The position numbers were made by a program, and so were the translations under genes. A DNA stretch of 63,800 bases, the filler included, from Craspedostauros australis (Eukaryota), in the NCBI GenBank assembly GCA_030167865.1. It is 5 parts of 5 records of this genome, joined end to end, with 100 filler letters (N's around TTAATTAATTAA, not from the genome) between each part and the next. Parts side by side here need not be neighbours in the genome. Positions count along the whole stretch, not along the records: positions 1 to 29,476 come from JALAGF010004969.1; 4 more parts are not named here. One strand, written 5' to 3'. How positions within the stretch are numbered: position 1 is the stretch's first letter; every line of letters starts with the position of its first letter. The notes under the pieces are model-generated. The model saw only the letters and a list, made by a program, of their open reading frames with translations, searched no databases and was not told where the DNA came from. Below are positions 405 to 62,513 of this stretch, piece by piece.

Positions 405-436
405 GTCATGACGTCATGATGTCATGACGTCATGAA
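405..436. promoter_or_regulatory. Tandem palindromic bZIP-type (CRE/aureo-box TGACGTCA) elements
   Basis: GTCATGACGTCATGA(T/A) occurs twice in tandem (405-420, 421-436); the core TCATGACGTCATGA is a perfect 14-bp palindrome. An AP-1-like TGAGTCA lies at 371-377. About 700 bp upstream of the CDS at 1139. Function is inferred. Confidence 0.35.
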
Positions 437-1138: not shown

Positions 1139-2821
1139 ATGACGACGATGATGCCATCAACAACGAAAGTAGCAACAGCATTGGCCTACATGTTCCTCCT
1201 TTTCGGGGATCTATCCTCTCTCTCTCCGCCAGGTGTGGCTGCGGGAACTCTCAGAGCCTCATCAGCCAAAGTTAGACCATCACCATCACCATCACCAACA
1301 ACGGGAGCAGCAAGACTGGGAGACGCATCGCCATCATTCAAGTCCACTTCGAGCAAGACTTCAAAGCAGACTTCAAAGCAGACAACTCGAAAGTCTGCCC
1401 ACAAGCTCCACAAGCAATCCAAGTCCCATTCGAGTGCTCAACCATCTGTCGATATCCCACATGTCCATACATCATCCTCAAGTGATGCTCTGATCAACGA
1501 CAGCAACCAGCCCACCGCCGCTCACATCGCCAACCATCGCACCGTCTTCCAAGCCAGAGTTACGCTTGATGGAATCGCGATGGATACCCTCAACCCTGAC
1601 GAGACCCTCTTCGTGGAGCAATCATTGACCAAGGCATTCCACACGGTCCAGTCGGAGTTCGGCGATCATGATTCCCACATTCACAACCTCATCGTGATTC
1701 CCACAACGACTTCCAACTCCGGTTCCAACTCCGACATGAATGCTGTTGGGGGTGCAGCCACGAGCGGACATGTGAACGGAGAGAGCAACAGCAATGTCAA
1801 CAGCAATGTCAACAGCAGCGATGACGGCGACGACAACAACCACAGTGACAGCAACGATGTCAACCAAGGTGATCGGATGCTGTTCCATTGGTCGTACAGC
1901 GGAGGATCGTACACACCCAACTTCCAGACTGGATACTACCATGTCAATATCTATGCCATCTTTGATGCATCGTGCTTCCTCTGTGGAAACCAGCCCGGCG
2001 CTGACGACGACGACGACGACGACGACGATGATGATGACAACGTGGTGCGGGTGGCGATGACTGACACGCCCACTTCCCATCCGACTTCAACACCAACGTC
2101 GGCACCATCAGCAACACCATCCGCAGCAGCGCCATCACCGATCCATCCGTCGCAATCTCCAACGACACCTTCAACATCGACACAACCATCATCGGTGCCA
2201 TCGCCATCGGTGCCACCATCGTCGTCACCATCGCCATCAATGGACGATGAGGATAGCATCGATGTCGACACCGATGAAGCCAGTCCATCCAACCAGACGG
2301 CAAGTCCATCCATGACACCATCGTCAACGATGTCCACCATTGAGCCTTCTTCTTCACAGGATCAACACATGGACGATGATGACGACTACTACTTTCGCCT
2401 TCCAAACCTTCGTGATGATGACGATGATGATGGATACAATGGCCGTGACAACTTCTCCAACTGGTACTTCAACTGGAGATCTCTTCAACAGCAGGGGCAA
2501 CAGCAGGAGCAACGAGATGAAGAGGAGGACGAGCAACACATCGCCACCGACTCATTCTCCATGAACCTTCGATCCTCTCCACGCCAATTGTCGACTAAGA
2601 ACGGAGAGGACAACAAGGCGACGACAACAACAGCGACAACAACAGCGACAACTGTCCAAGACCATGATGATGACAAAAGCGAAGAGGATCATCACATTCA
2701 TGGATCTGCTGTTGCTCATCGGCGGTTGGAGAACGCCCTGTGCGATGATCTTCGAACAGGTCCGTTTGATAGCCTCCGCGGAGTGGAGAATTGCGCCATC
2801 ACGTACACTCCTGTCGTGTGA
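1139..2821 (+). CDS. Secreted acidic Ser/Thr/Pro-rich diatom protein with KxxK cluster and RxL motifs (silaffin/cingulin-like composition; candidate cell-wall/EPS protein), copy A
   Basis: 560-aa ORF. Hydrophobic N-terminal signal (VATALAYMFLLFG...VAAG), Lys cluster KSTSSKTSKQTSKQTTRKSAHKLHKQSK, poly-Asp runs, a PTS linker, and Cys-containing folded segments (CFLC; LCDDLR...NCAITY). Near-identical inverted paralog at 28369-29476. Confidence 0.75.
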   Translation: MTTMMPSTTKVATALAYMFLLFGDLSSLSPPGVAAGTLRASSAKVRPSPSPSPTTGAARLGDASPSFKSTSSKTSKQTSKQTTRKSAHKLHKQSKSHSSAQPSVDIPHVHTSSSSDALINDSNQPTAAHIANHRTVFQARVTLDGIAMDTLNPDETLFVEQSLTKAFHTVQSEFGDHDSHIHNLIVIPTTTSNSGSNSDMNAVGGAATSGHVNGESNSNVNSNVNSSDDGDDNNHSDSNDVNQGDRMLFHWSYSGGSYTPNFQTGYYHVNIYAIFDASCFLCGNQPGADDDDDDDDDDDDNVVRVAMTDTPTSHPTSTPTSAPSATPSAAAPSPIHPSQSPTTPSTSTQPSSVPSPSVPPSSSPSPSMDDEDSIDVDTDEASPSNQTASPSMTPSSTMSTIEPSSSQDQHMDDDDDYYFRLPNLRDDDDDDGYNGRDNFSNWYFNWRSLQQQGQQQEQRDEEEDEQHIATDSFSMNLRSSPRQLSTKNGEDNKATTTTATTTATTVQDHDDDKSEEDHHIHGSAVAHRRLENALCDDLRTGPFDSLRGVENCAITYTPVV

Positions 2822-3239
2822 GCGAACTCGCAAATCCTGCCACATGTGCATGTAATAACGTAGTAGATCGAATGGAATATCATCATTAGCAGAGTTGCCG
2901 GTGCCACGTGCCCATTTCGGATACACGACGAAAATGCGAATGTGAATCAAACAAACATCTTTAGTCGAAGGGTCTTCTACTTCTCCACGAAGTCCATCTG
3001 ATTGCGAAGTGTGTTGAAATTGGAAGACGGTCTCTCGGAATAGTTCTGCATTCGCTTTGAACCTCATGGCGTTGAATTTGTCCTTTGCTGCGCTGCGTCT
3101 TCCGTCCTCAATCTTCGCCGTCAAACCGCTGCCCAATGCAATGTGGTGTCGTCAATCACTTGCTGCATTGACATCATGATGCGATTGTGTGCATGGCATT
3201 GGAAATGCCCACCGCTGGTGCAGCTATTGTATGTCTACT

Positions 3240-3735
3240 CTATTTGACTGGCAATCCCTTTTCTTGGAGCGACTTGAGACGCGGTTCATCTGGAACCTTG
3301 CCGATACATGCCTTGATTCGCTGTCCCCCGACCGAAACAGTGCACGATCCGCAATCACCTCTGTTGGTTGATGTTGTTTGTTGTTGTTGTGGAAAGATGA
3401 AGAAAAAAAGATGGTGAGGGACGCATATCCAATCATACCACGTCACTTCCATTCAAGTGCTGGAGCATGCCAATGCATTGCAGTTGTGCACGTTCGACGT
3501 ACTTTCGGCAAGAGTATTTGGGCTTGACGCCCAACGCAGCGACGGCGCTCTTCAGTGGGCTGCCTGGCTTGAAGTTCTTTTTCTTGTTGCCGTTCGTGAG
3601 GATGGTCATGGACAGCGTCGTGGACGATTGCTGCTGCTGTGGCAATTGCGGAGCCGTGAAGGCCTCGACGTAGCATTGTGACAGGCACAGGCACGCCGTC
3701 ACGACGAGAAGGACAGTGGTGTGGAACGATCTCAT
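3240..3735 (-). CDS. Plastid-targeted minimal 2Fe-2S ferredoxin-type protein (2 exons, 117 aa)
   Basis: Exon1 3735-3503 (MRSFHTTVLLVVTACLCLSQCYVEA|FTAPQ signal + AF motif ... PKYSCRK), GT-AG intron 3502-3361, exon2 3360-3240 (GDCGSCTVSVGGQRIKAC...). Splicing keeps the frame and builds C-x4-C-x2-C-x11-C (CRKGDCGSC...C), the 2Fe-2S motif. Confidence 0.85.
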
Positions 3736-4967: not shown

Positions 4968-7055
4968 ATGAGATTCTTCTGCCTGAGCGCTCTTTTGGCC
5001 ACCGCCGCTGCTTTCACCAGCCAGCCAGCTGCCTTCACAACCCACTCCCCTCTGGTCGGAGAGCGCGTCGTTGGAGGAGTCGTCGCTGATGGTGCTGCCC
5101 ACCGCACACGACGTGCCACCATCGTCATGGACGGAAAGGCCAATGGTACGTATTCCACGAGGGCTTCAACATCACGTAGATTTGATGCCATGAGAACACA
5201 TTCGCACACGCACGCAGAGGCAGACAAACGCACGAAGCAGGAGTTGACGAATGCGCAAGCGTTGGGCGTTCAACTATCATCATCACCATGATTGTGATGG
5301 TCATCCCAGCATCTGCCAATCTTTTCACACGCAGGGACGGAACACTTCACCAAAATTGCCAGTGCCGCATCGGCAGGTCGAACACCAACACCAGCAAAGG
5401 TGAATGCATCGTCGCAGATCACAGCTCCAACAGCAGCTCAACGGCAGAGCAGCAGCACATCACGTCATCCTTCGTGGACAGACGGTGCAGGCTTGGCTGT
5501 CTTGATCAACTCGCCAGCTGCTGATGTTACGTGCCGTCTACGGTTGACTCAGGATACTCCCTTTCTACGGATACCATCTCCCTGCGTGGCCGCAGCTCTC
5601 TATCCATCTATCTCTCTTGCCGACCATCTCACCATGAACATGAAACCCTCTCCTGTCTCTCTTTTTGCGCCTCAAAACACCCTCTCCCGCACATCGGTTG
5701 GGCGAATCTTTTGATTTTATTTTGCGCTACACTCGATTCGGACGCTACGAACGCATACGCACGAACGGCGGATGGCTGGCGACGCACACAACAACGACAA
5801 AAACGAATGATCAATGCGCGACGTACCCTTTCCCATGATACGATGCATCATGCCATTGCCGCATCTCTGTCCATGCCTGCTGTTTGCTACTTGACCAACC
5901 ATGATGTCATGCACACCACATCAAACGCCACGCATATGAACAACGCCTTCGACTGGCGACTCTCGCTCATGCCTTGCGCGCCTTACAACTGTGTGCTGTG
6001 ACGAATGACTCCTCCCAATCGCGATCCTTCGCGCCGTCACATGAATGGTGACTGCAACCGCGCTGCGACTGTTGCAACAACGACAATGCTCCCAATGATG
6101 ATAACGATGATGTCGATCCACAGCCATCCGTGACCGCATCAAGAGTGTCAAGAACACCCGTAAGATCACCATGGCCATGAAGCTCGTCGCCGCCGCCAAG
6201 GTGCGTCGTGCCCAGGACGCCGTCCTCGCCACCCGTCCATTCTCTGAGACCCTCCAGTCCGTCTTCGGAGGACTCGTCCAGCGATTGGGCGATGACACCA
6301 TCGATCTCCCACTCCTCACCCAGCGCGAGGTCAAGAAGGTCACCCTCGTCGTCGTCACGGGAGACCGTGGTCTCTGCGGAGGTTACAACTCCTTCATGAT
6401 CAAGAAGGCCGAGGCCCGTTACAAGGAGCTTCAGTCCCAGGGCGTCGAATGCGACTTCATCCTCATCGGAAAGAAGGGAGCCGTCTACTTCGAGCGCCGC
6501 AAGTACCCAATCCGCAAGACCTTCGACTGCGGACAGAACCCAGACTCCAAGCAAGCCCTCGCCATCTCCGAGGAGATCCTCAACACCTACCTCGCCGGAG
6601 AGAGCGACGCCATCGAGCTCCTTTACACCAAGTTCGTCTCCCTCATCGCCTCCATGCCAAGTGTCCGCACTCTGGTCCCATTCTCCGCCTCCGAGATCAC
6701 CCAGAAGGGTGACGAGGTCTTCCAGCTCACCTCCGATTCGGGAGCCTTCGGTGTCGAGCGCACCGAGCTCGATGTCGCCGAGCCACAGGAATTCCCCAAC
6801 GACATGATCTTCGAGCAGGATCCACTCCAGATCGTCAACTCCATCCTCCCACTCTACCTCAACGGACAGATCCTCCGAACCCTCCAGGAGTCCGTCGCCT
6901 CCGAACTCGCCGCCCGTATGCAGAGTATGCAATCCGCCAGTGACAACGCCGGTGAGCTCGCCAAGAAGCTCTCCCTCGAATACAACCGCGCTCGTCAAGC
7001 TGCCGTCACCCAGGAAATCCTCGAAATTGTCTCCGGAGCCCAGGCTCTCGAGTAA
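4968..7055 (+). CDS. atpC: Chloroplast ATP synthase gamma subunit (nuclear-encoded, 2 exons)
   Basis: Exon1 4968-5145 (MRFFCLSALLATAAA|FTSQP bipartite presequence ... VMDGKAN), intron 5146-6123 (GTACGT...CAG), exon2 6124-7055 (AIRDRIKSVKNTRKITMAMKLVAAAKV; GDRGLCGGYN; ELAARM; YNRARQAAVTQEILEIVSGA). Confidence 0.97.
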
Positions 7056-25705: not shown

Positions 25706-27663
25706 TCAATTCGGACCTGCGGGCGCCGCTATCAACGCGATGACGATGGCAGCGAATGATGCCAACCTTGCTCGTTGCACCGTTCCAATCGGCGCAGCGG
25801 AACCATCATTGCCGCCAGTTCCCCCATCACCATCGGGGTTTCCCATCGCACCAGGCCCGGACGGACCTTGCACATCGAATGTCGTTGTCTCAAATGGCAC
25901 GCGTTGGCTGTTGGACCCTTCCCAATTGTCCTGCTTTTGCAGTTGCGCCAACAGTTCCGACTTCGTCCCGGACCGCGGTCCGTTGTAGGCGTAGTTGTCA
26001 AAATGTTTGAGCGCCGTTGCCGCACCCTGCAAGGTCTGCGGCAAAGCGCTTTGATCCGTGCCGTACGCATCCTCATCCAGGCCGGGTTCCAAGAAGGATG
26101 CTCCGGCATACGAAAAGCCACCTAGCATGGTTGACGCATTGGATGACGTTTCGCAGTAGACAAAAACGGTGTCGCCCGTGGCGGCCAGGGCAAAGTTACC
26201 GCTGGATGTTTGCCAGTCAGAGCCGTACAACAGTTGGACGGTGGATGTGTCCTGGCTGTAACCGAACACGGTGCCTCTGCCGATACCCCCCGATGGAATT
26301 TTCATCTGATGAATGGTGGGAAGGAATGGGAGAGATGTTGGTGGAAACAGCAGCACACATGGTATGAAACGGAATAGCATAGAACGGGTGGTTTCGTGAG
26401 AACTCCACTCGTATCTTGCTGCAGGATATCGTGCTGCATATAGCGTCACAAGTCAATCGACTTGTGCACTGCATCACCCCAACAACGTTCACCACGCGTT
26501 GCCCAATAGTTCCGTTCACAGCGTCTCAAAGTATCGGTCGCACTCACCTTCCGCTTGCCCTCGTTAGATCGGAAGGCTTCTCCCATCCAAGCATTGTCGG
26601 TCATGCAGAGCTCCATATTTTCCGGCAGGTTTTCCAACGCCACCATGGCCACGACGTCAGGATTGTCAGAATGCACCGCGACGATCTGGACATCGCCAGG
26701 CGACAGATCGTCGCAGGAATCAACCTTGGCATCCACGCTCGTAGGACTCGGCGTGGGCGATGTCCCATCTGGCTGGCAATTGGCATACCCATAGTAGTTG
26801 GATTCGGTCGATCGCTCCGCCGATTTCGTGGTTTGCGGCCGGCCGTACATGGCCTCCACCAACTCCGGATGATCCACGAAGACGTTGCGATTGCCTTGCC
26901 ACCGCGTGCAGACTCTGTCATTGCGTGCTTCTTCGGCTGTATCGACGGGATCGGCGTAGTGCCATTCCAACAGCTGCGATAGGTACGCCATCTGGTTCGT
27001 ACCTTCCTGCGGACAGTCCGTCAATTCCAAATCGACATCGTTGCCATCGCCGTAGTACCGCACATCCATGTAAAAGATGGCGCGAGCAATATCACCTCGC
27101 ACGGACGGCGGCGGCAGGAACACCACGCTGTCCTTCGAAGTGCCATCGGCGGCTTCTGGTGCGGCCGGCACATCGCACTCACCGCCATCAGCGGCGTCCG
27201 CGAAACAGGATCCGAAGTACAGATTGTTGCGCGCGCTGTTGACGTTCCAATCGGCCGGCCGCAGATGATGCACATCGGTGAAATCGGCACCGCTTGTTCC
27301 GACGCCCAGCGACTTGGGCCACAGATGTTCGCGGTTCCAGGTGGTAGATGTGCCGTAGTCCTGCGCCGCGACGTCGGCCTGCTTGTAAATGAGGCGCACG
27401 GTGCTGGAGGATGTTGCATCCAGATCGATCAGGGCATCCCACACGTCCTCGCGGTTGTTGGCCGTGTACGGAAGGACCTTGACGTGGGTGCTCTTGAGGA
27501 GACGCCCGATGTCCAGTTTGTCCCAATCCTTGGGGTTGGTTGAGGGATCGCCATTCATCAGGGGCTTGTAGTAGATATTCGTTGGACAATTTTCAGCGAA
27601 TGAATCGTTGCCTTGTGCCTGAGCGATCGCGAAGATGAACGTGGTGACTGTTGCGAACTTCAT
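25706..27663 (-). CDS. Secreted Endonuclease I-family (His-Me finger, Bsn/EndA-like) nuclease with extra C-terminal domain and hydrophobic tail (2 exons, 571 aa)
   Basis: Signal peptide MKFATVTTFIFAIAQA; WNREHLWPKS, DVHHLRPADWNVNSARNN, RGDIARAIFYMDVRY, QGNRNVFVDHPE. Exon1 27663-26548, phase-0 intron 26547-26306 (GTGAGT...CAG), exon2 26305-25706. Confidence 0.88.
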
Positions 27664-28368: not shown

Positions 28369-29476
28369 TCACACGACAGGAGTGTACGTGATGGCGCAAT
28401 TCTCCACTCCGCGGAGGCTATCAAACGGACCTGTTCGAAGATCATCGCACAGGGCGTTCTCCAACCGCCGATGAGCAACAGCAGATCCATGAATGTGATG
28501 GTCATTTTCGCTTTTGTCATCATCATGGTCTTGGACAGTTGCCGCTGTCGCTGTTGTCGTTGTTGTTGTTGTCGTCGTCGTCGTCTTGTCGTCCTCCCCG
28601 TTCTCAGTCGACAATCGGCGTGGAGAGGATCGAAGGTTCATGGAGAATGAGTCGGTGGCGATGTGCTGCTCGTCCTCCTCTTCATCTCGTTGCTCCTGCT
28701 GATGTTGCTCCTGCTGTTGCCCCTGCTGTTGAAGATATCTCCAGTTGAAGTACCAGTTGGAGAAGTTGTCACGGCCATCGTATCCATCATCATCGTCATC
28801 ATCACGAAGGTTTGGAAGACGGAAGTAGTAGTCGTCATCATCATCGTCGTCATCATCGTCCATGTGTTGATCCTGTGAAGAAGAAGAAGGTTCAATGGTG
28901 GACATCGTTGACGATGGTGTCATGGATGGACTTGCCGTCTGGTTGGATGGACTGGCTTCATCGGTGTCGACATCGATGCTATCCTCATCGTCCATTGATG
29001 GCGATGGTGACGACGATGGTGGCACCGATGGCGATGGCACCGATGATGGTTGTGTCGATGTTGAAGGTGTCGTTGGAGATTGCGACGGATGGATCGGTGA
29101 TGGCGCTGCTGCGGATGGTGTTGCTGATGGTGCCGACGTTGGTGTTGAAGTCGGATGGGAAGTGGGCGTGTCAGTCATCGCCACCCGCACCACGTTGTCA
29201 TCATCATCGTCGTCGTCGTCGTCGTCGTCGTCAGCGCCGGGCTGGTTTCCACAGAGGAAGCACGATGCATCAAAGATGGCATAGATATTGACATGGTAGT
29301 ATCCAGTCTGGAAGTTGGGTTTGTACGATCCTCCGCTGTACGACCAATGGAACAACATTCGATCACCTTGGTTGACATCGTTGCCGTCATCACTGCTGTT
29401 GACATTGCTGTTGACATTGCTGTTGCTCTCTCCGTTCACATGTCCGCTCGTGGCTGCACCCCCAACAGCATTCATG
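28369..29476 (-). CDS. Inverted paralog (copy B) of the secreted acidic RxL protein at 1139-2821; 5' end lost in the gap
   Basis: Colinear and near-identical to about 1736-2821; differences are mostly repeat-length changes. Truncated by the N spacer. Confidence 0.8.
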
Positions 29477-29576
29477 NNNNNNNNNNNNNNNNNNNNNNNN
29501 NNNNNNNNNNNNNNNNNNNNTTAATTAATTAANNNNNNNNNNNNNNNNNNNNNNNNNNNNNNNNNNNNNNNNNNNN
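29477..29576. other. Artificial contig spacer (N44-TTAATTAATTAA-N44)
   Basis: Six-frame-stop linker flanked by Ns; identical spacers occur at three other sites. Confidence 0.97.
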
Positions 29577-32131
29577 CAGGCTCTCTCCTTGATGACAATG
29601 TCATTGGCGATAGTTTCATTGTGGGCAACATCCTCGCATGCGCTTTCGCCATCGCAAGCACCCTGTTCAATGAGCAAGCTTCCTTCAATTTTGATTCCCA
29701 GAAAATTAGTCCTCGCATGTGCCCGCTGGCAAGCATATTCTCCATGGCATGCGTTCTCCCCAATTGTAATGTCTGCCACGATCGGTGATGTCGTATCACC
29801 CTGACTGTTGCGTCTGCCAAGAAAGTAGCATGCATCGTCACCATCGCAAGCCCCACTCTTAATTCTCACATTGCCAAAGATGTTACGGCCAAGGCTACAG
29901 CAACTGAATGACCCATGGCATGCCTTTGGTCCAATCACCCGGTACCCGAGCTTGACATCAGGGTGTGGGATGCTGTTGAATCCGCCCAGATCATCACAGG
30001 CCTCATCGCCGACGCAACTCTCGATGATGATGGTATCAGGGACCATCCTACCGCACAGGGCGCCCTCCACGCAGGAATTCTCACTGACTGTCATCACACC
30101 AGGAGGAAAAGTGCGGCAATCACCGGAATCTGTGCAACAATCCGTGCCACAAGCCTCCCGCAATGGATCTTCACTCCCAGTGAATAGTCTTGTGCCTTTT
30201 GCCACAGTTTTCACCAGTAGCTCAGTCATGTCGCGATCGTTCTTGATCTTGTCGAATCGGGCTTGAGCTTCCCCAATTGCCACTATCCCAGGAGTGTCAT
30301 CATCATTGCAACCAAAGATGCTCTTGATCATTCTATCTCCATTGCCAGGTAGACCTTCGACTGCATCAACGAAATCCGCGCACGCACCATCGCTCTCATT
30401 GCAGAAGACCTGATCAGATATCGTGTTGAAAGTCGATGCCACATTCCCCGGACCTTCGAGGCATCCAACCTCAAGTCCAGGCGTGGTGGTTGGCATGGTG
30501 GTTGGCATGGTGCTTGGCGCCTGAGAACGCGAAGGAGACGAGCTTGGTCGATCGGTTGGCATGGTGGTCGGAATGGGCGTAGGGTTGGACGACACAGTGG
30601 GAAGTGGGGTTGGAAAGAAGGTAGGACACTCCGTTGGCAACGTGTCCTTACCAACGCAATACTTCTCCACCTTGTCACCCGTTGGAAGGAAGTTTGTGTC
30701 CCTGCCTCCCTTGGGACAGGCTCCCTCCGCATCACTGATCANATACACCGCATCATGATCGCACTCCGACTTCGTCATNCATGCCCANCAGCTCTGANCA
30801 CCGCCNCANCCNCCAGGAGGGACGATGATATCNGTNNTCATCCTGTCATTCAAGCCAAGCTTCTCGCATGAGCCTTCATCAGCACAGCCACCATCACCGA
30901 TGGTCAGGCTTCCTGCAATCTTGCCAGCAGAACCGCGATCCACAGTGGAATGGGCATCCTTGCAGGCATTGCTGCCAACACAAGCATTCGAGCCAATATC
31001 GATGTGGCTTCGATAGCGAAAGGATGGTGCTGACTGTTTGACACGGCGGCCAGCTGAGTAGCATGCTTTGGGGCTGATGCATGCGCCAGTCTGGATGGTC
31101 ACATCACCGTGTGATCGATGTCCCACCCCTTCACAGGATTGCGTGTTGGTGCATGCGCCTTCACCAACGAATGTCACTCCAGTGATGAAAGGATTGATCT
31201 CGTTCTGATTCATGGATTCGCATGCACTCACGCCAGTGCAAGAGGCGTCCAGGATGAGAGGGTTCGGTCCCATGTCTTTGCATGCGCTGTCACCGACACA
31301 CGCAGTGACGGCAACGGTCATGAATGGCGGATAGTTGGAGTTGGAAGCAGAAGCGGTGATTGAGGTGCATCCTGCTGATCCTTGGCAGCATGGATTGGCG
31401 GCGAGAGGAGACAGGGCCATCCCGATGGACATGCATGCCGCCTTCATCGCATCCGGTCGCTCAGTGATGAGGATAGTCTTGGTGGTCGCCACCAGAGTGA
31501 GTTGCTCAGCAAGGATATCGCTGGTTGCGTACTTGTGGAAGAGCTTGCGCGTCGCACCTTCTCCCAAGTTCCCTGCGCATCCGAAGAAGTTCTGGAGTGC
31601 CGTGGATTCCCTCACAGCGGTCACTGCCTCGCGGCATGATGGCTTGGCAGAGTTGCAGATGATGGTCTTGGGTTTGGTCTCTTCTGGTGTGAGAATGGTG
31701 ACGCCGTCAGGCCTGCAGACAACGGAGATGATGGAATCAAAGTCCATCGGGGGAGATGACGGAGATGATGTCGGCGGCGCGGTGGGTGCAGCCATGGGAG
31801 GGGAGGTCAGGGAGCGTGTGGGATCGACGGTTGGATGGGCGCTTGGAATCCATGTGGGCGTGGTGGTGAGATCTGTAGCCTCCTTGGAAGTTGAAGGCAT
31901 TTGTGATGGTGGAATGGAGGGTTCCAAGAAGCCGTTCTTGTTTGTTTTGGCTCCCTTGTTGTTGCCGGCGCCGAAAGCAGCCTTGAGGGTGCGAGTAGCT
32001 TGTAACGCCAGGTGCATCTCATCGACTGTGTCTGCGGTCTGATCTCCAGAGAGGCGCGCTTCTGCCATTGTCATGAAGGTGACAAGGAGAGTGGTGATGA
32101 TGATTGTCTTGACGTTGATCATCTTGATCAT
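29577..32131 (-). CDS. Large secreted mucin-like protein with alternating PTS linkers and Cys-rich (A/S)CxGxxAC repeat domains, copy A (3' truncated)
   Basis: Signal peptide (TIIITTLLVTFMTMAEA), RTL motif, PTS tract, Cys-rich module 1, PTS tract, Cys-rich module 2. The ORF stays open into the gap. Confidence 0.85.
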
Positions 32132-33055
32132 CTTGATTTTCGTGTTGGCTTATGTGATTGAGTGATGGAGATTGTTGTTGCTGTTGGTGGTGATGTTGCT
32201 GTTGCTGTTGCTTTCCGATTCGAATTGGAGTTTGTTGATTTTGTGGTAAAGAGTGGTGGTAGCAATCATTTTGCCTCCAGTGTTGCCCCCAGTGTTGCCT
32301 CCACACGATGCCAAAGGGCAAGACCTCGTCTGTTGAAGTAGTACAGCCCATGTTTGGTTCTGTGCTTGGTACTGCCTCGTTCGTGCCATTCGGGCAAGCG
32401 AAGGATCCCTCTTTCATCCCTTGTTTCTGTTGACTCGTCTTCACTCAGAAACGACATGTGAATGCGATTGCGGACTGATGAGAGTATCACGCAGAATGAA
32501 CCCGTGGCTGAAGAAGGAACATGCGTAGTCGTAAGGTATGTAGAACCTCATGTTTCGCACAGCCCTGACATGCACGCTGATCTCAACTGCGATTGAAGTC
32601 TGTGTGTATCTCCAAGTTGGAACCGAAGTACCAGAAATCACCGACTACTCTCCGCATGGAGGATGGATACGTTCGCATCGCGTTTTGATCATGTGCGATG
32701 TTGCCCATGATGTTGCTGAACCTTCGCCAAATCAAAATGACATGGGCCCACCCCAGCCCGTGCCCTTCTCTGTTCCTTCGCTCTTGCTTTTGATCTTGAT
32801 TTCGATCTTGCCCTTGTCCCATGAGAGTCTCGATGTATCATTAGAGACGCACTTCGCTACACCTCGGAGACCACCACACCATCTTGATTGCAGATGCCTG
32901 CCGAACACTTCAATGTGTGTGGTTGGCACAGGGGATTCTCAATCGAAACGATGTGGTTGTGGGAAAGAAGAGAAGAAACGGAGTTGCGAAAATTGCGTAT
33001 TCTTTCGGTTACTGAGATCATTCGATGCCGTCGTCTGTCTAGCTGAATGCGACCT
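29577..33055 (-). repeat. Left arm of a ~3.5-kb inverted segmental duplication (partner 45489-48975)
   Basis: Its reverse complement aligns with 45489-48975, including about 0.9 kb of upstream non-coding DNA. Both arms end at the same base (...AAGGAGAGAGCCTG) against N spacers. Confidence 0.92.
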
Positions 33056-45488: not shown

Positions 45489-48400
45489 AGGTCGCATTCA
45501 GCTAGACGGACGACAGCATCGAATGATCTCAGTATCCGAAAGAAATACGCAATTACCGCAACTTTGTTTCTTCTCTTCTTTCCCACAACCACATCGTTTC
45601 GATTGAGAATCCTCTGTCCCAACCACACACACTTTGAAGTCCTCGGCGGGTGCCGGCAATCAAGATGGTGTGGTGGTCTGAGATGTGCAGCGAAGTGCGT
45701 CTGCAATGATACATCGAGACTCTCATGGGACAAGGGCAAGATCAAAATCAAGATCAAAGTCAAGAGCAAAGGAACAGAGAGGAGCACGGACCGGGGTAGG
45801 CCCATGTCATTTTGATTTGGCGAAGGTTCAGCAATACCATGAGCAACGTCGCACACGGTCAACACGCGATGCGAACGTATCCATCCTGCATGCGGAGAGC
45901 AGTCGGTGATTTCTGGTACTTCGGTTCCAACTTGGAGATACACACAGACTTCAATCGCAGTTGAGATCAGTGTGCAATTCAAGGTGATGCGAAACATGAC
46001 ACTCTGCATACCTTACGACTACGCATGCTCCTCTTCAGCCACGGGTTCATTCTGCTTGATACTCTCATCAGTTGGCAATCGCATTCACATGTCGTTTCTG
46101 AGCAAAGACGAGTCAACAGAAACAAGGGATGAAAGAGGGATCCATCACTTGCCGGAATGGCACGAACCAGGCAGCATCACACACAGAATCAAACATGGGC
46201 TGCACTACTTCAACAGACGAGGCCTTGCCCTTTGGCATCGTGTGGAGGCAACACTGGGGGCAACACTGGAGGCAAAATGATTGCTACCACCACTCTTTCC
46301 ACAAAATCAACAAACTCCAATTCGAATCGGAAAGCAACAGCAACAGCAACAGCAACATCACCACCAACAGCAACAGCATTCTCCATCACTCAATCACATA
46401 AGCACAACATGAAAATCAAGATGATCAAGATGATCAACGTCAAGACCATCATCATCACCACTCTCCTTGTCACCTTCATGACAATGGCGGAAGCGCGCCT
46501 CTCTGGAGATACGACCGCAGACACAGTCGATGAGATGCACCTGGCGTTACAAGCTACTCGCACCCTCAAGGCCGCTTTCGGCGCCGGCAACAACAAGGGA
46601 GCCAAAACAAACAAGAACGGCTTCTTGGAACCCTCCATTCCGCCATCACAAATGCCTTCAACTTCCAAGGAGGCTACAGATCTCACTACCACGCCCACAT
46701 GGATTCCAAGCGCCCATCCAACGGTCGATCCCACACGCTCCCCGACCTCCCCTCCCATGGCTGCACCCACTGTGCCGCCAACATCATCTCCGTCATCTCC
46801 CCCAATGGACTTTGATTCCATCATCTCCGTTGTCTGCAAGCCTGACGGCGTCACCATTCTCACACCAGAAGAGACCAAACCCAAGACCATCATCTGCAAC
46901 TCCGCCAAGCCATCATGCCGCAAGGCAGTGACCGCTGTGAGGGAATCCATGGCGCTGCAGAACTTCTTCGGATGTGCAGGGAACTTGGGAGAAGGTGCGG
47001 CGCGCAAGCTCTTCCACAAGTACGCAACCAGCGATATCCTTGCTGAGCAACTCACTCTGGTGGCGACCACCAATACTGTCCTCGTCACTGAGCAACCGGA
47101 TGCGATGAAGGCGGCATGCATGTCCATCGGGATGGCCCTGTCTCCTCCCGCCGCCAATCCATGCTGCCAAGGATCAGCAGGATGCACCTCAATCACCGCT
47201 TCTGCTTCCAACTCCAACTATCCGCCATTCATGACCGTTGCCGTCACTGCGTGTGTCGGTGACAGCGCATGCAAAGACATGGGACCGAACCCTCTCATCC
47301 TNGANGCCTCTTGCACTGGCGTGAGTGCATGCGAATCCATGAATCAGAACGAGATCAATCCTTTCATCACTGGAGTGACATTCGTTGGTGAAGGCGCATG
47401 TACCAACACGCAATCCTGTGAGGGGGTGGGGCATCGATCACACGGTGATGTGACCATCCAGACTGGCGCATGCATCAGCCCCAAAGCATGCTACTCAGCT
47501 GGCCGCCGTGTCAAACAGTCAGCACCATCCTTTCGCTATCGAAGTCACATCGATATTGGCCCGAATGCTTGCGTTGGCAGCAATGCCTGCAAGGATGCCC
47601 ATTCCACTGTGAGTAGTTTTCCTGGTGGCAAGCGTGAAGGAAGCCTGACCATCGGTGATGGTGGCTGTGCTGATGAAGGCTCATGCGAGAAGCTTGGCTT
47701 GAATGACAGGATGAAGACGGATATCATCGTCCCTCCTGGTGGGTGCGGCGGTGATCAGAGCTGTTGGGCATGTATGACGAAGTCGGGGTGCGATCATGAT
47801 GCGGTGTATGTGATCAGTGATGCGGAGGGAGCCTGTCCCAAGGGAGGCAGAGACACAAACTTCCTTCCAACGGGTGACAAGGTGGAGAAGTATTGCGTTG
47901 GTAAGGACATGTTGCCAACAGAGTGTCCTACCTTCTTTCCAACCCCACTTCCCACTGTGTCGTCCAACCCTACGCCCATTCCGACCACCATGCCAACTGA
48001 TCGACCAAGCTCGTCTCCTTCGCGTTCTCAGGCGCCAAGCACCATGCCAAGCACCATGCCAACCACCACGCCTGGACTTGAGGTTGGATGCCTCGAAGGT
48101 CCGGGGAATGTGGCATCGACTTTCAACACGATATCTGATCAGGTCTTCTGCAATGAGAGCGATGGTGCGTGCGCGGATTTCGTTGATGCAGTCGAAGGTC
48201 TACCTGGCAATGGAGATAGAATGATCAAGAGCATCTTTGGTTGCAATGATGATGACACTCCTGGGATAGTGGCAATTGGGGAAGCTCAAGCCCGATTCGA
48301 CAAGATCAAGAACGATCGCGACATGACTGAGCTACTGGTGAAAACTGTGGCAAAAGGCACAAGACTATTCACTGGGAGTGAAGATCCATTGCGGGAGGCT

Positions 48401-48975
48401 TGTGGCACGGATTGTTGCACAGATTCCGGTGATTGCCGCACTTTTCCTCCTGGTGTGATGACAGTCAGTGAGAATTCCTGCGTGGAGGGCGCCCTGTGCG
48501 GTAGGATGGTCCCTGATACCATCATCATCGAGAGTTGCGTCGGCGATGAGGCCTGTGATGATCTGGGCGGATTCAACAGCATCCCACACCCTGATGTCAA
48601 GCTCGGGTACCGGGTGATTGGACCAAAGGCATGCCATGGGTCATTCAGTTGCTGTAGCCTTGGCCGTAACATCTTTGGCAATGTGAGAATTAAGAGTGGG
48701 GCTTGCGATGGTGACGATGCATGCTACTTTCTTGGCAGACGCAACAGTCAGGGTGATACGACATCACCGATCGTGGCAGACATTACAATTGGGGAGAACG
48801 CATGCCATGGAGAATATGCTTGCCAGCGGGCACATGCGAGGACTAATTTTCTGGGAATCAAAATTGAAGGAAGCTTGCTCATTGAACAGGGTGCTTGCGA
48901 TGGCGAAAGCGCATGCGAGGATGTTGCCCACAATGAAACTATCGCCAATGACATTGTCATCAAGGAGAGAGCCTG
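45489..48975 (+). repeat. Right arm of the ~3.5-kb inverted segmental duplication
   Basis: Reverse complement of 29577-33055. Confidence 0.92.
46409..48975 (+). CDS. Large secreted mucin-like Cys-rich repeat protein, copy B (3' truncated)
   Basis: Near-identical to 29577-32131. Starts MKIKMIKMINV (start at 46409 or 46421); open to the gap. Confidence 0.85.
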
Positions 48976-49075
48976 NNNNNNNNNNNNNNNNNNNNNNNNN
49001 NNNNNNNNNNNNNNNNNNNTTAATTAATTAANNNNNNNNNNNNNNNNNNNNNNNNNNNNNNNNNNNNNNNNNNNN
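48976..49075. other. Artificial contig spacer
   Basis: N44-TTAATTAATTAA-N44. Confidence 0.97.
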
Positions 49076-59305: not shown

Positions 59306-59405
59306 NNNNNNNNNNNNNNNNNNNNNNNNNNNNNNNNNNNNNNNNNNNNTTAATTAATTAANNNNNNNNNNNNNNNNNNNNNNNNNNNNNNNNNNNNNNN
59401 NNNNN
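59306..59405. other. Artificial contig spacer
   Basis: N-TTAATTAATTAA-N. Confidence 0.97.
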
Positions 59406-62413: not shown

Positions 62414-62513
62414 NNNNNNNNNNNNNNNNNNNNNNNNNNNNNNNNNNNNNNNNNNNNTTAATTAATTAANNNNNNNNNNNNNNNNNNNNNNNNNNNNNNN
62501 NNNNNNNNNNNNN
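62414..62513. other. Artificial contig spacer
   Basis: N44-TTAATTAATTAA-N44. Confidence 0.97.

What the first reader, a model, noticed from the sequence alone, without database searches (positions are those of the whole stretch)
1139..2821. Candidate biosilica/extracellular polyprotein whose RxL processing sites are under visible purifying selection
Seen: signal peptide, KxxK-rich Lys cluster (KTSK, KLHK, KQSK), poly-Asp, Trp/Tyr-rich patches (FHWSYSGGSY..GYYH, DDDDYYF, NWYFNW) and RxL motifs. Between the two paralogs, RML is kept through synonymous changes in both the R and L codons (CGG ATG CTG vs CGA ATG TTG). RSL->RYL and RQL->RRL change only the X residue. Known: RxL is the proposed pro-peptide cleavage motif, and KxxK/Lys clusters are modification/targeting motifs, of diatom silaffins, cingulins and other wall proteins. 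Inference: a precursor cut into basic, acidic/aromatic and folded modules.
Basis: partly seen in the sequence, partly recalled or inferred. Interest (0 to 1): 0.7.

Follow-up and report, generated by a model that had tools for sequence, protein, structure and literature searches.

The report
Diatom secreted protein with cut-site loops
A duplicated diatom gene encodes a probably secreted protein of an unnamed family in which one small folded domain carries a conserved Arg-x-Leu cutting motif in each of two loops, so it is probably cut into three pieces; cutting, location and any role in the silica wall are not shown.

Summary
The ORF (1139-2821, 560 aa), its motifs and the quoted codon differences are real. 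The second copy (28369-29476, minus strand) is cut by a contig end and covers only aa 200-560. Two copies cannot show selection at RxL: no R/L replacement has probability 0.4-0.5 even under neutrality.

A wider family does show it. In 29 of 29 sequences (15 of 15 clusters; shuffled loops give 3.4 and 2.1) an RxL lies in each of two loops of very variable length. These correspond to RML246 and RSL447. RQL482 and RRL528 are not conserved.

The 'folded modules' are one beta-alpha-beta-beta-alpha-beta domain split by long insertions. Its best structural matches are SEA domains (Z 6.4-7.7, moderate). Site 1 sits in the beta2-beta3 loop, where animal SEA domains are cut; site 2 sits after beta3.

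Best reading: a secreted SEA-like precursor cut twice by the unknown diatom RXL protease into three chains; the middle chain is aromatic, CxxC-bearing and acidic. Silaffin or cingulin membership is not supported: no pentalysine cluster, no repeats, and a folded core. Cleavage, location and a silica role are untested.

The parts
1139..2821 (+). Copy A, complete intron-free ORF, 560 aa
   Evidence: 28 relatives, core identity 28-63%
1139..1243 (+). Probable signal peptide (aa 1-35; the end point is a guess by eye)
   Evidence: hydropathy; a hydrophobic leader in 21 of 27 family members, and five of the other six begin close to the core and look cut short
1340..1426 (+). Ser/Thr/Lys-rich stretch, 8 Lys in aa 68-95, three KxxK, at most 4 Lys in 14 aa; not a pentalysine cluster
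1535..1708 (+). Core piece 1: beta1 (aa 134-144), alpha1 (153-174), beta2 (184-190)
   Evidence: model; R140, T142, L143, E160 invariant in 25 sequences
1874..1882 (+). RML246-248: conserved RxL site 1, at the end of the beta2-beta3 loop
   Evidence: RxL in this loop in 29 of 29 sequences, two copies in 21 of 29
1883..1984 (+). Aromatic patch, beta3 (aa 267-276) and invariant CxxC (C279, C282): core piece 2
2003..2476 (+). Insertion in the beta3-alpha2 loop: poly-Asp (289-300), Pro/Thr/Ser stalk (307-410), Asp/aromatic patches (412-446)
   Evidence: loop is 15-245 aa across the family; similar acid/aromatic patches in P0001, P0002, P0006
2477..2485 (+). RSL447-449 (RYL in copy B): conserved RxL site 2
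   Evidence: R447 and L449 invariant in 25 of 25 aligned; RxL in this loop in 29 of 29
2582..2590 (+). RQL482-484 (RRL in copy B): not conserved outside the two copies
   Evidence: no aligned counterpart in 24 relatives
2708..2815 (+). Core piece 3: alpha2 with C535, the LRxGP motif, beta4 with C552; RRL528 lies in the helix
28369..29476 (-). Copy B, aa 200-560 only, cut by the end of contig C4969; likeness to copy A stops exactly at the stop codon
1..1818 (.). Stretch also present letter for letter at the start of contigs C3838 and C3839; its last 84 bases also match the end of copy B. Probably one assembly node shared by both copies (upstream DNA plus first 226 codons)

Best explanation
A secreted, soluble (no transmembrane segment) protein of an unnamed family. 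It is built on one SEA-like beta-alpha-beta-beta-alpha-beta domain with four conserved cysteines. The domain folds as one chain in the secretory pathway and is then cut by the still unidentified diatom RXL endopeptidase at two conserved sites, one in the beta2-beta3 loop (RML246) and one in the beta3-alpha2 loop (RSL447). This gives three chains: N (aa about 36-248: Lys/Ser stretch, beta1-alpha1-beta2), M (249-449: aromatic patch, beta3, CxxC, poly-Asp, Pro/Thr/Ser stalk; calculated pI about 4) and C (alpha2-beta4). Because beta3 is an inner strand of this fold (recalled), the chains most likely stay together at first, as cleaved SEA domains do. The cut domain would then act as a latch that displays, or later lets go of, the acidic/aromatic M chain at the cell surface, wall or mucilage. 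Shown: the family, the motif conservation and the predicted single-domain topology. Inferred: secretion (about 0.85), cleavage (about 0.75), continued association (about 0.5), a wall or mucilage destination (about 0.5; silica specifically about 0.35).
For: Family of 28 relatives. RxL in loop 1 and loop 2 in 29 of 29 sequences and in 15 of 15 clusters at 70% core identity, against 3.4 and 2.1 expected from shuffled loops. Among all two-residue patterns with gaps of 0-2, only R.L appears in all 15 in each loop; the next best reach 12. Loop lengths vary 20-82 and 15-245 aa while the motif stays. Two metagenome members were recruited by an alpha1 pattern alone and carry both motifs. The compact member P0003 folds with core pLDDT about 90, order E-H-E-E-H-E; residues 105-119, which hold the loop-1 motifs, are under 50. 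The window protein alone gives the same order, and its matches span residues 130-560. Six of the top seven structural matches of P0003 are SEA or SEA-like regions: TMPRSS6 Z 7.7, rmsd 2.9, 106 aligned; Gpr126 Z 7.7, rmsd 4.1, 103; MUC16 Z 7.2, 6.7, 6.4; SorCS2 Z 6.7 (naming the TMPRSS6 and SorCS2 ranges as SEA(-like) is recalled). MUC1, Notch2 and GPR126 SEA domains are cut in the beta2-beta3 loop and stay intact until pulled (PMC6954182, passages). RXL is removed from mature silaffins and is proposed as a general diatom processing motif (PMC4557024, passage).
Against: No experiment shows cleavage or location. Z under 8 may mean only a common fold; Foldseek gave no match at E<=0.001, and neither Pfam nor PDB sequences match. 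The low-confidence model of the window protein (pLDDT 42) ranks other ferredoxin-like proteins above the Gpr126 SEA region (rank 42). The fold-search output gives ranges only, so equivalence of the loops rests on strand order. Relatives share ancestry, so 15 clusters are not 15 independent events. All well-matched SEA proteins are membrane-tethered, whereas 0 of 27 members has a transmembrane-like segment, so a force-sensing role does not carry over. The taxonomy of the relatives is unknown: all come from unnamed environmental records.
Confidence: 0.55

Rival explanations
1. Nested propeptide: the fold is a disposable carrier and the product is the freed middle peptide (25-62 aa in compact members, about 200 aa here), an aromatic, CxxC-looped, acidic peptide that acts with polyamines in silica or mucilage formation. 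This is the closest form of the first reader's polyprotein idea.
For: The middle piece is bounded by RxL on both sides in 29 of 29. It is 10-35% aromatic and has calculated pI under 5 in 24 of 29. All the large insertions (poly-Asp, Pro/Thr/Ser stalk) ride on it. If the cysteines pair locally (279-282, 535-552; inferred from topology, not measured), nothing covalent holds it. Silaffin and silacidin precursors release peptides at RXL.
Against: The N and C core pieces are as conserved as the middle one, which suits a lasting fold. Removing an inner strand should unfold the domain (inference). 5 of 29 middle pieces are not acidic (pI 6.2-9.2). No pentalysine cluster in 27 of 27.
Confidence: 0.22
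2. A released signalling protein (pheromone-like or cell-contact cue) matured by RxL cleavage, with no structural role in the wall.
For: Most members are small (175-260 aa), soluble and disulfide-containing. Pseudo-nitzschia MRP1, a mating-type-specific protein with a signal peptide (PMC6261938, passages), is reported to resemble the SEA fold (bioRxiv 10.64898/2026.03.25.714164, passages).
Against: I had no MRP1 sequence to compare, and its stated element order (four strands, five helices) differs from this family's. The window member's long Asp and Pro/Thr/Ser insertions suit a matrix protein better. No expression data.
Confidence: 0.13
3. The RxL motifs are conserved as sorting or binding signals and are not cut, so the protein works as one intact chain with long disordered loops.
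For: Tesson et al. state that RXL processing is hypothesised and remains to be proven (PMC5647440, passage). Two cuts around an inner strand could destabilise the fold.
Against: Loss of RXL-ended pieces is observed for silaffins and suggested for Sin1. The doubled motif in loop 1 (21 of 29) looks like a spacer to be excised.
Confidence: 0.1

Closest known systems
RXL-processed diatom wall precursors: silaffin Sil1p, silacidins, cingulins, frustulins (PMC4557024, passage; PMC9650480, passages)
   Same: Signal peptide, RxL motifs, Lys/Ser, Asp, Pro/Thr/Ser and aromatic low-complexity stretches.
   Different: Those are described as random-coil proteins with one or no Cys (PMC5525289) and have RXL at repeat ends. 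Here there are no repeats, no pentalysine cluster, a four-Cys folded core, and the sites lie inside the domain.
Silicanin-1 / SiMat7-like family and SAPs (PMC5525289, PMC5501833, PMC5647440; passages)
   Same: Secretory diatom proteins with RXL; Sin1 has a Cys-containing folded lumenal part.
   Different: They have a transmembrane helix, and the RXL ends an N-terminal pro-piece. This family has no transmembrane segment (0 of 27) and its conserved RxL are internal. No direct sequence comparison was run.
Animal SEA domains cut in the beta2-beta3 loop: MUC1 (self-cleavage at GSVVV), Notch2 and GPR126 (furin) (PMC6954182, passages)
   Same: Ferredoxin-like fold by prediction (Z up to 7.7), extracellular setting, mucin-like Pro/Thr/Ser stretch, and a protease motif in the same loop.
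   Different: No sequence match to Pfam SEA. No GSVVV in that loop. A second conserved site after beta3. Stand-alone and soluble rather than part of a membrane protein.
Pseudo-nitzschia multistriata MRP1
   Same: Diatom protein with a signal peptide and a predicted SEA-like fold.
   Different: Different stated element order; RxL content and sequence relation not tested.

Membership tests
Silaffins / cingulins | N-terminal signal peptide | tested here: inconclusive
   Hydrophobic leader present; no SignalP available.
Silaffins / cingulins | Pentalysine cluster K..K..K.{1,2}K..K, or repeated K(S/G)(S/G)K (patterns) | tested here: not met
   Pattern absent in the query and in 27 of 27 tested; at most 4 Lys in 14 aa; the three KxxK have T, L, H or Q inside; two overlap and the third lies 12 residues away.
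Silaffins / cingulins | Fully disordered chain with at most one Cys | tested here: not met
   Four-Cys pattern in 25 of 27 and a confident folded core.
Silaffins / cingulins | RXL motifs | tested here: met
   Two conserved sites.
Silaffins / cingulins | Silica association, and Lys/Ser modifications | not testable with these tools
   Needs proteomics or a fusion protein.
Silicanin / SAP | Single C-terminal transmembrane helix | tested here: not met
   Highest 19-residue hydropathy after the core start is 0.82 in the query; 0 of 27 reach 1.6.
SEA domain | Ferredoxin-like beta-alpha-beta-beta-alpha-beta fold closest to SEA structures | tested here: met
   moderate Z (7.7 at best), shown on relative P0003; weaker on the window protein.
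SEA domain | Sequence match to Pfam SEA (PF01390) | tested here: not met
   No match for the query or 9 relatives at E<=1; only a feature-score lead of 0.75, rank 8.
SEA domain | Self-cleavage motif GSVVV in the beta2-beta3 loop | tested here: not met
   The only look-alike in the query is GSAVA, before alpha2, and it is not conserved. The family's RSVVV is strand beta2 itself.
SEA domain | Cleavage in the beta2-beta3 loop with the halves staying associated | not testable with these tools
   A conserved protease-type motif is in that loop; cleavage itself is untested.

The most novel reading that the evidence does not exclude
Diatoms have a stand-alone SEA-like 'latch' family in which the RXL protease cuts on both sides of a core strand. 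The domain becomes a three-chain complex whose middle strand is a cassette carrying variable cargo (25 to 200 aa of acidic, aromatic or mucin-like sequence), released on a cue such as the acid pH of the silica deposition vesicle, reduction or force. That would join the RXL system of biosilica proteins to SEA-type cleavage. It would also give a compact 175-210 aa folded substrate with invariant sites for identifying the RXL protease.
Probability: 0.25. Interest if true: 0.8.

Novelty: new variant of a known kind. Interest (0 to 1): 0.56.

Why it matters
The protease that cuts diatom wall proteins at RXL is unknown, and cleavage at the motif has mostly been argued from disordered, repetitive precursors that cannot be aligned. 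Here the motif can be aligned against a conserved fold and is kept in both loops in every member examined, which is strong comparative evidence that RxL is a selected signal. Its place inside a SEA-like domain suggests a use other than releasing repeats or removing a pro-piece. Short family members would be practical reporters for finding the protease and the exact bond cut.

Tried and rejected
(1) Two-copy selection test at R/L codons: no power.
(2) Word-based homologue searches with aa 515-560 and aa 240-292 found nothing; the full HMMER scan gave 10 hits. P0008 was dropped as a low-complexity match to aa 286-376 only. L022 was dropped as the same protein as P0002 (by eye). Near-identical cluster members P0011, P0013, P0014 and P0031-P0056 were not counted.
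(3) The copies as alleles at an inversion breakpoint: no alternative junction was found for either inner end, and the DNA next to both ends is single-copy in the assembly. An inverted duplication is simpler, but an assembly effect is not excluded without long reads.
(4) Further paralogues in the genome: none found with five protein queries; the weak C6669 hit (E 0.17, with a stop) showed no such ORF.
(5) No relatives found in viral or prokaryote collections with one peptide pattern each; this is a weak search.
(6) Expression: no RNA holder listed. One run guessed to be RNA has a 228-base contig identical to 2492-2719; not taken as evidence.
(7) Site-1 protease (PF23090) search in the genome: nothing, and the control rang nowhere, so uninformative.
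(8) No profile search of the own genome was possible, so distant paralogues remain open.
(9) Literature: eight searches showed no description of this family or of RxL inside a diatom SEA-like domain. The library lacks most subscription papers, and no supplements were read (preprint supplements are closed; protein lists there could include members).
(10) Disulfide pairing could not be read, as model coordinates are not returned. No complex prediction was run, since pieces of one domain would pass trivially.

Full report
Setting. The window is a string of contigs joined by N spacers; bases 1-29476 are contig C4969 of a 65.9-Mb assembly. It reads as a diatom. A plastid ATP synthase gamma gene with a bipartite-type leader lies at 4968-7055 (the leader motif is recalled), and two genes carry DUF6824 (its diatom bias is recalled).

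Observation. It has four RxL (246, 447, 482, 528) against 0.84 expected (P=0.0085). Copy B lies inverted at 28369-29476 and is cut by the contig end at aa 200. The copies differ at 13 synonymous and 10 non-synonymous of 353 codons, plus repeat-length changes. The gene is constrained overall (pN/pS about 0.2-0.27, P about 0.001). The eight R/L codons hold about 16 non-synonymous sites, so seeing no change there has probability 0.42-0.50 under neutrality. The claim of visible selection from the pair therefore fails.

The duplication. Contigs C3838 and C3839 each begin with window bases 1818 to 1, letter for letter, and the last 84 of these bases also match the end of copy B. Beyond that they remain alike over a further 415 bases, with 41 mismatches and 4 gaps. 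The DNA next to both inner ends has no second match in the assembly. The simplest reading is an inverted duplication with arms over 3 kb around a 25.5-kb single-copy segment. The arms are a patchwork of identical tracts (1915-2343, 2690-2821), and likeness ends exactly at the stop codon. Gene conversion would give this pattern (inference). An assembly effect is not excluded.

The family. A full HMMER scan gave 10 hits, 9 of them true relatives. A profile search gave 18 hits, 16 of them new, and a metagenome scan 3 loci, 2 of them new. All are unnamed or 'hypothetical' environmental records. No Pfam family describes them. Most are 175-260 aa. A hydrophobic leader is present in 21 of 27, a transmembrane-like segment in 0 of 27, and the four-Cys pattern in 25 of 27. 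The window protein is an expanded member, 63% identical in the core to P0001 and 28-43% to the others. An ESM Atlas cluster of 200 aa with one diatom record scored 0.78-0.80, a lead only.

Motif conservation. I cut each of 29 sequences into core pieces and loops by anchor patterns, without using the motif. Both loops contain RxL in 29 of 29; loop 1 has two in 21 of 29. With one sequence per cluster at 70% core identity the count is 15 of 15 for each loop, against 3.4 and 2.1 in shuffled loops. No other two-residue pattern with a gap of 0-2 exceeds 12 of 15. Loop lengths range over 20-82 and 15-245 aa. In the window protein the conserved sites are RML246 and RSL447. RQL482 has no counterpart, and RRL528 is in a helix and is RxL in 6 of 28. 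The clusters share ancestry and are not independent events; at 50% core identity they collapse to 3 groups.

The fold. AlphaFold2 on P0003 with 26 sequences gave mean pLDDT 75.8, core blocks at 80-97, and the order beta(38-49), alpha(58-78), beta(88-95), beta(126-137), alpha(154-169), beta(181-188); residues 105-119, which hold the loop-1 motifs, are under 50. The window protein alone gave a poor model (42.3) with the same order, whose matches all span about 130-560. The folded stretches are therefore one domain split by insertions. Against 48,161 chains the P0003 model ranks TMPRSS6 (Z 7.7, rmsd 2.9, 106 aligned), Gpr126 368-503 (7.7, 4.1, 103), three MUC16 SEA entries (7.2, 6.7, 6.4) and SorCS2 (6.7) in its top seven (repeated). 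I had noted the SEA idea before these searches. The Z values are moderate, Foldseek found nothing at E<=0.001, and there is no sequence match. So: SEA-like fold, yes; SEA family membership, not shown.

Mechanism. Site 1 lies in the beta2-beta3 loop, the loop cut in MUC1, Notch2 and GPR126, whose halves stay together until pulled (PMC6954182, passages). Site 2 lies just past beta3 and its CxxC. RXL ends are missing from mature silaffins, and the motif is proposed as a general diatom endopeptidase signal (PMC4557024). The protease is unknown (PMC5525289), and Tesson et al. call the role unproven (PMC5647440). Cutting both sites gives N (about 22 kDa, pI 6.3), M (22 kDa, pI 4.05) and C pieces. 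The M piece is aromatic in all members and acidic in 24 of 29. I rate a three-chain complex (0.55) above a freed M peptide (0.22), a signalling protein like MRP1 (0.13) and an uncut chain (0.10). These steps are inferred, not shown.

Silica. The published pentalysine pattern (bioRxiv 10.1101/2021.09.18.460806, section 14) is absent in 27 of 27. KxxK is common in background diatom proteomes and only three-fold enriched in silica proteins (same paper, passage). However, 25 of the 92 silica-associated proteins there lack known targeting signals, so absence does not exclude the wall. Pro/Thr repeats with RXL are typical of silicon-responsive genes (PMC5501833, passages). I put a biosilica role at about 0.35.

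Papers. Read as passages only: PMC5647440, PMC5501833, PMC5525289, PMC9650480, PMC4557024, PMC6954182, PMC4220933, PMC6261938 and bioRxiv 10.64898/2026.03.25.714164; passages plus one section for bioRxiv 10.1101/2021.09.18.460806. No supplements were read. Eight searches showed no description of this family. An earlier unchecked scan note (e1-7504657) describes a similar nested-RxL layout in another diatom family; I did not test it, and it is not independent support.

Verdict. A real, constrained, duplicated gene. RxL conservation holds for two sites on family evidence. The architecture is a split SEA-like domain, not a string of modules, and function is untested. New variant of a known kind; interest 0.56.

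Noticed in passing
window 29577-33055 and 45489-48975: A second duplicated gene (96% identical over 3.5 kb, on different contigs) for a secreted Cys-rich protein with DUF7640 and an RTL motif about 45 aa after the start; both copies are cut by contig ends. Alleles or paralogues not resolved.
   Followed up: partly
window 2821/2822 and 28368/28369: Likeness between the two copies stops exactly after the TGA, following 132 identical bases; the 3' flanks are unrelated.
   Followed up: partly
L008:1819-2233 and L009:1819-2230 (contigs C3838, C3839): The upstream neighbour, a methyltransferase-like ORF by eye, is also duplicated in part, with 41 mismatches and 4 gaps over 415 bases, next to 1818 identical bases.
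   Followed up: no
window 29477-29576, 48976-49075, 59306-59405, 62414-62513: Artificial spacers (44 N, a 12-base all-frame stop word, 44 N) join unrelated contigs; ORFs and neighbourhoods across them are not real.
   Followed up: yes
window 26446-27663 (-): Secreted-looking endonuclease I family protein (PF04231) directly downstream of copy B; a bacterial-type family, origin not examined.
   Followed up: no
window 2941-3735 (-): Small spliced gene with a plastid-type leader converging on copy A; a contig of run X1 covers 2941-3300 and runs beyond.
   Followed up: no
window 406-435: A 30-base imperfect palindrome about 700 bases upstream of the ATG.
   Followed up: no
family alignment A4: In many relatives the first loop-1 motif reads RxLRG, and several carry another RxL or RxLRG after the signal peptide, recalling oomycete RxLR (recalled likeness, not tested).
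   Followed up: no
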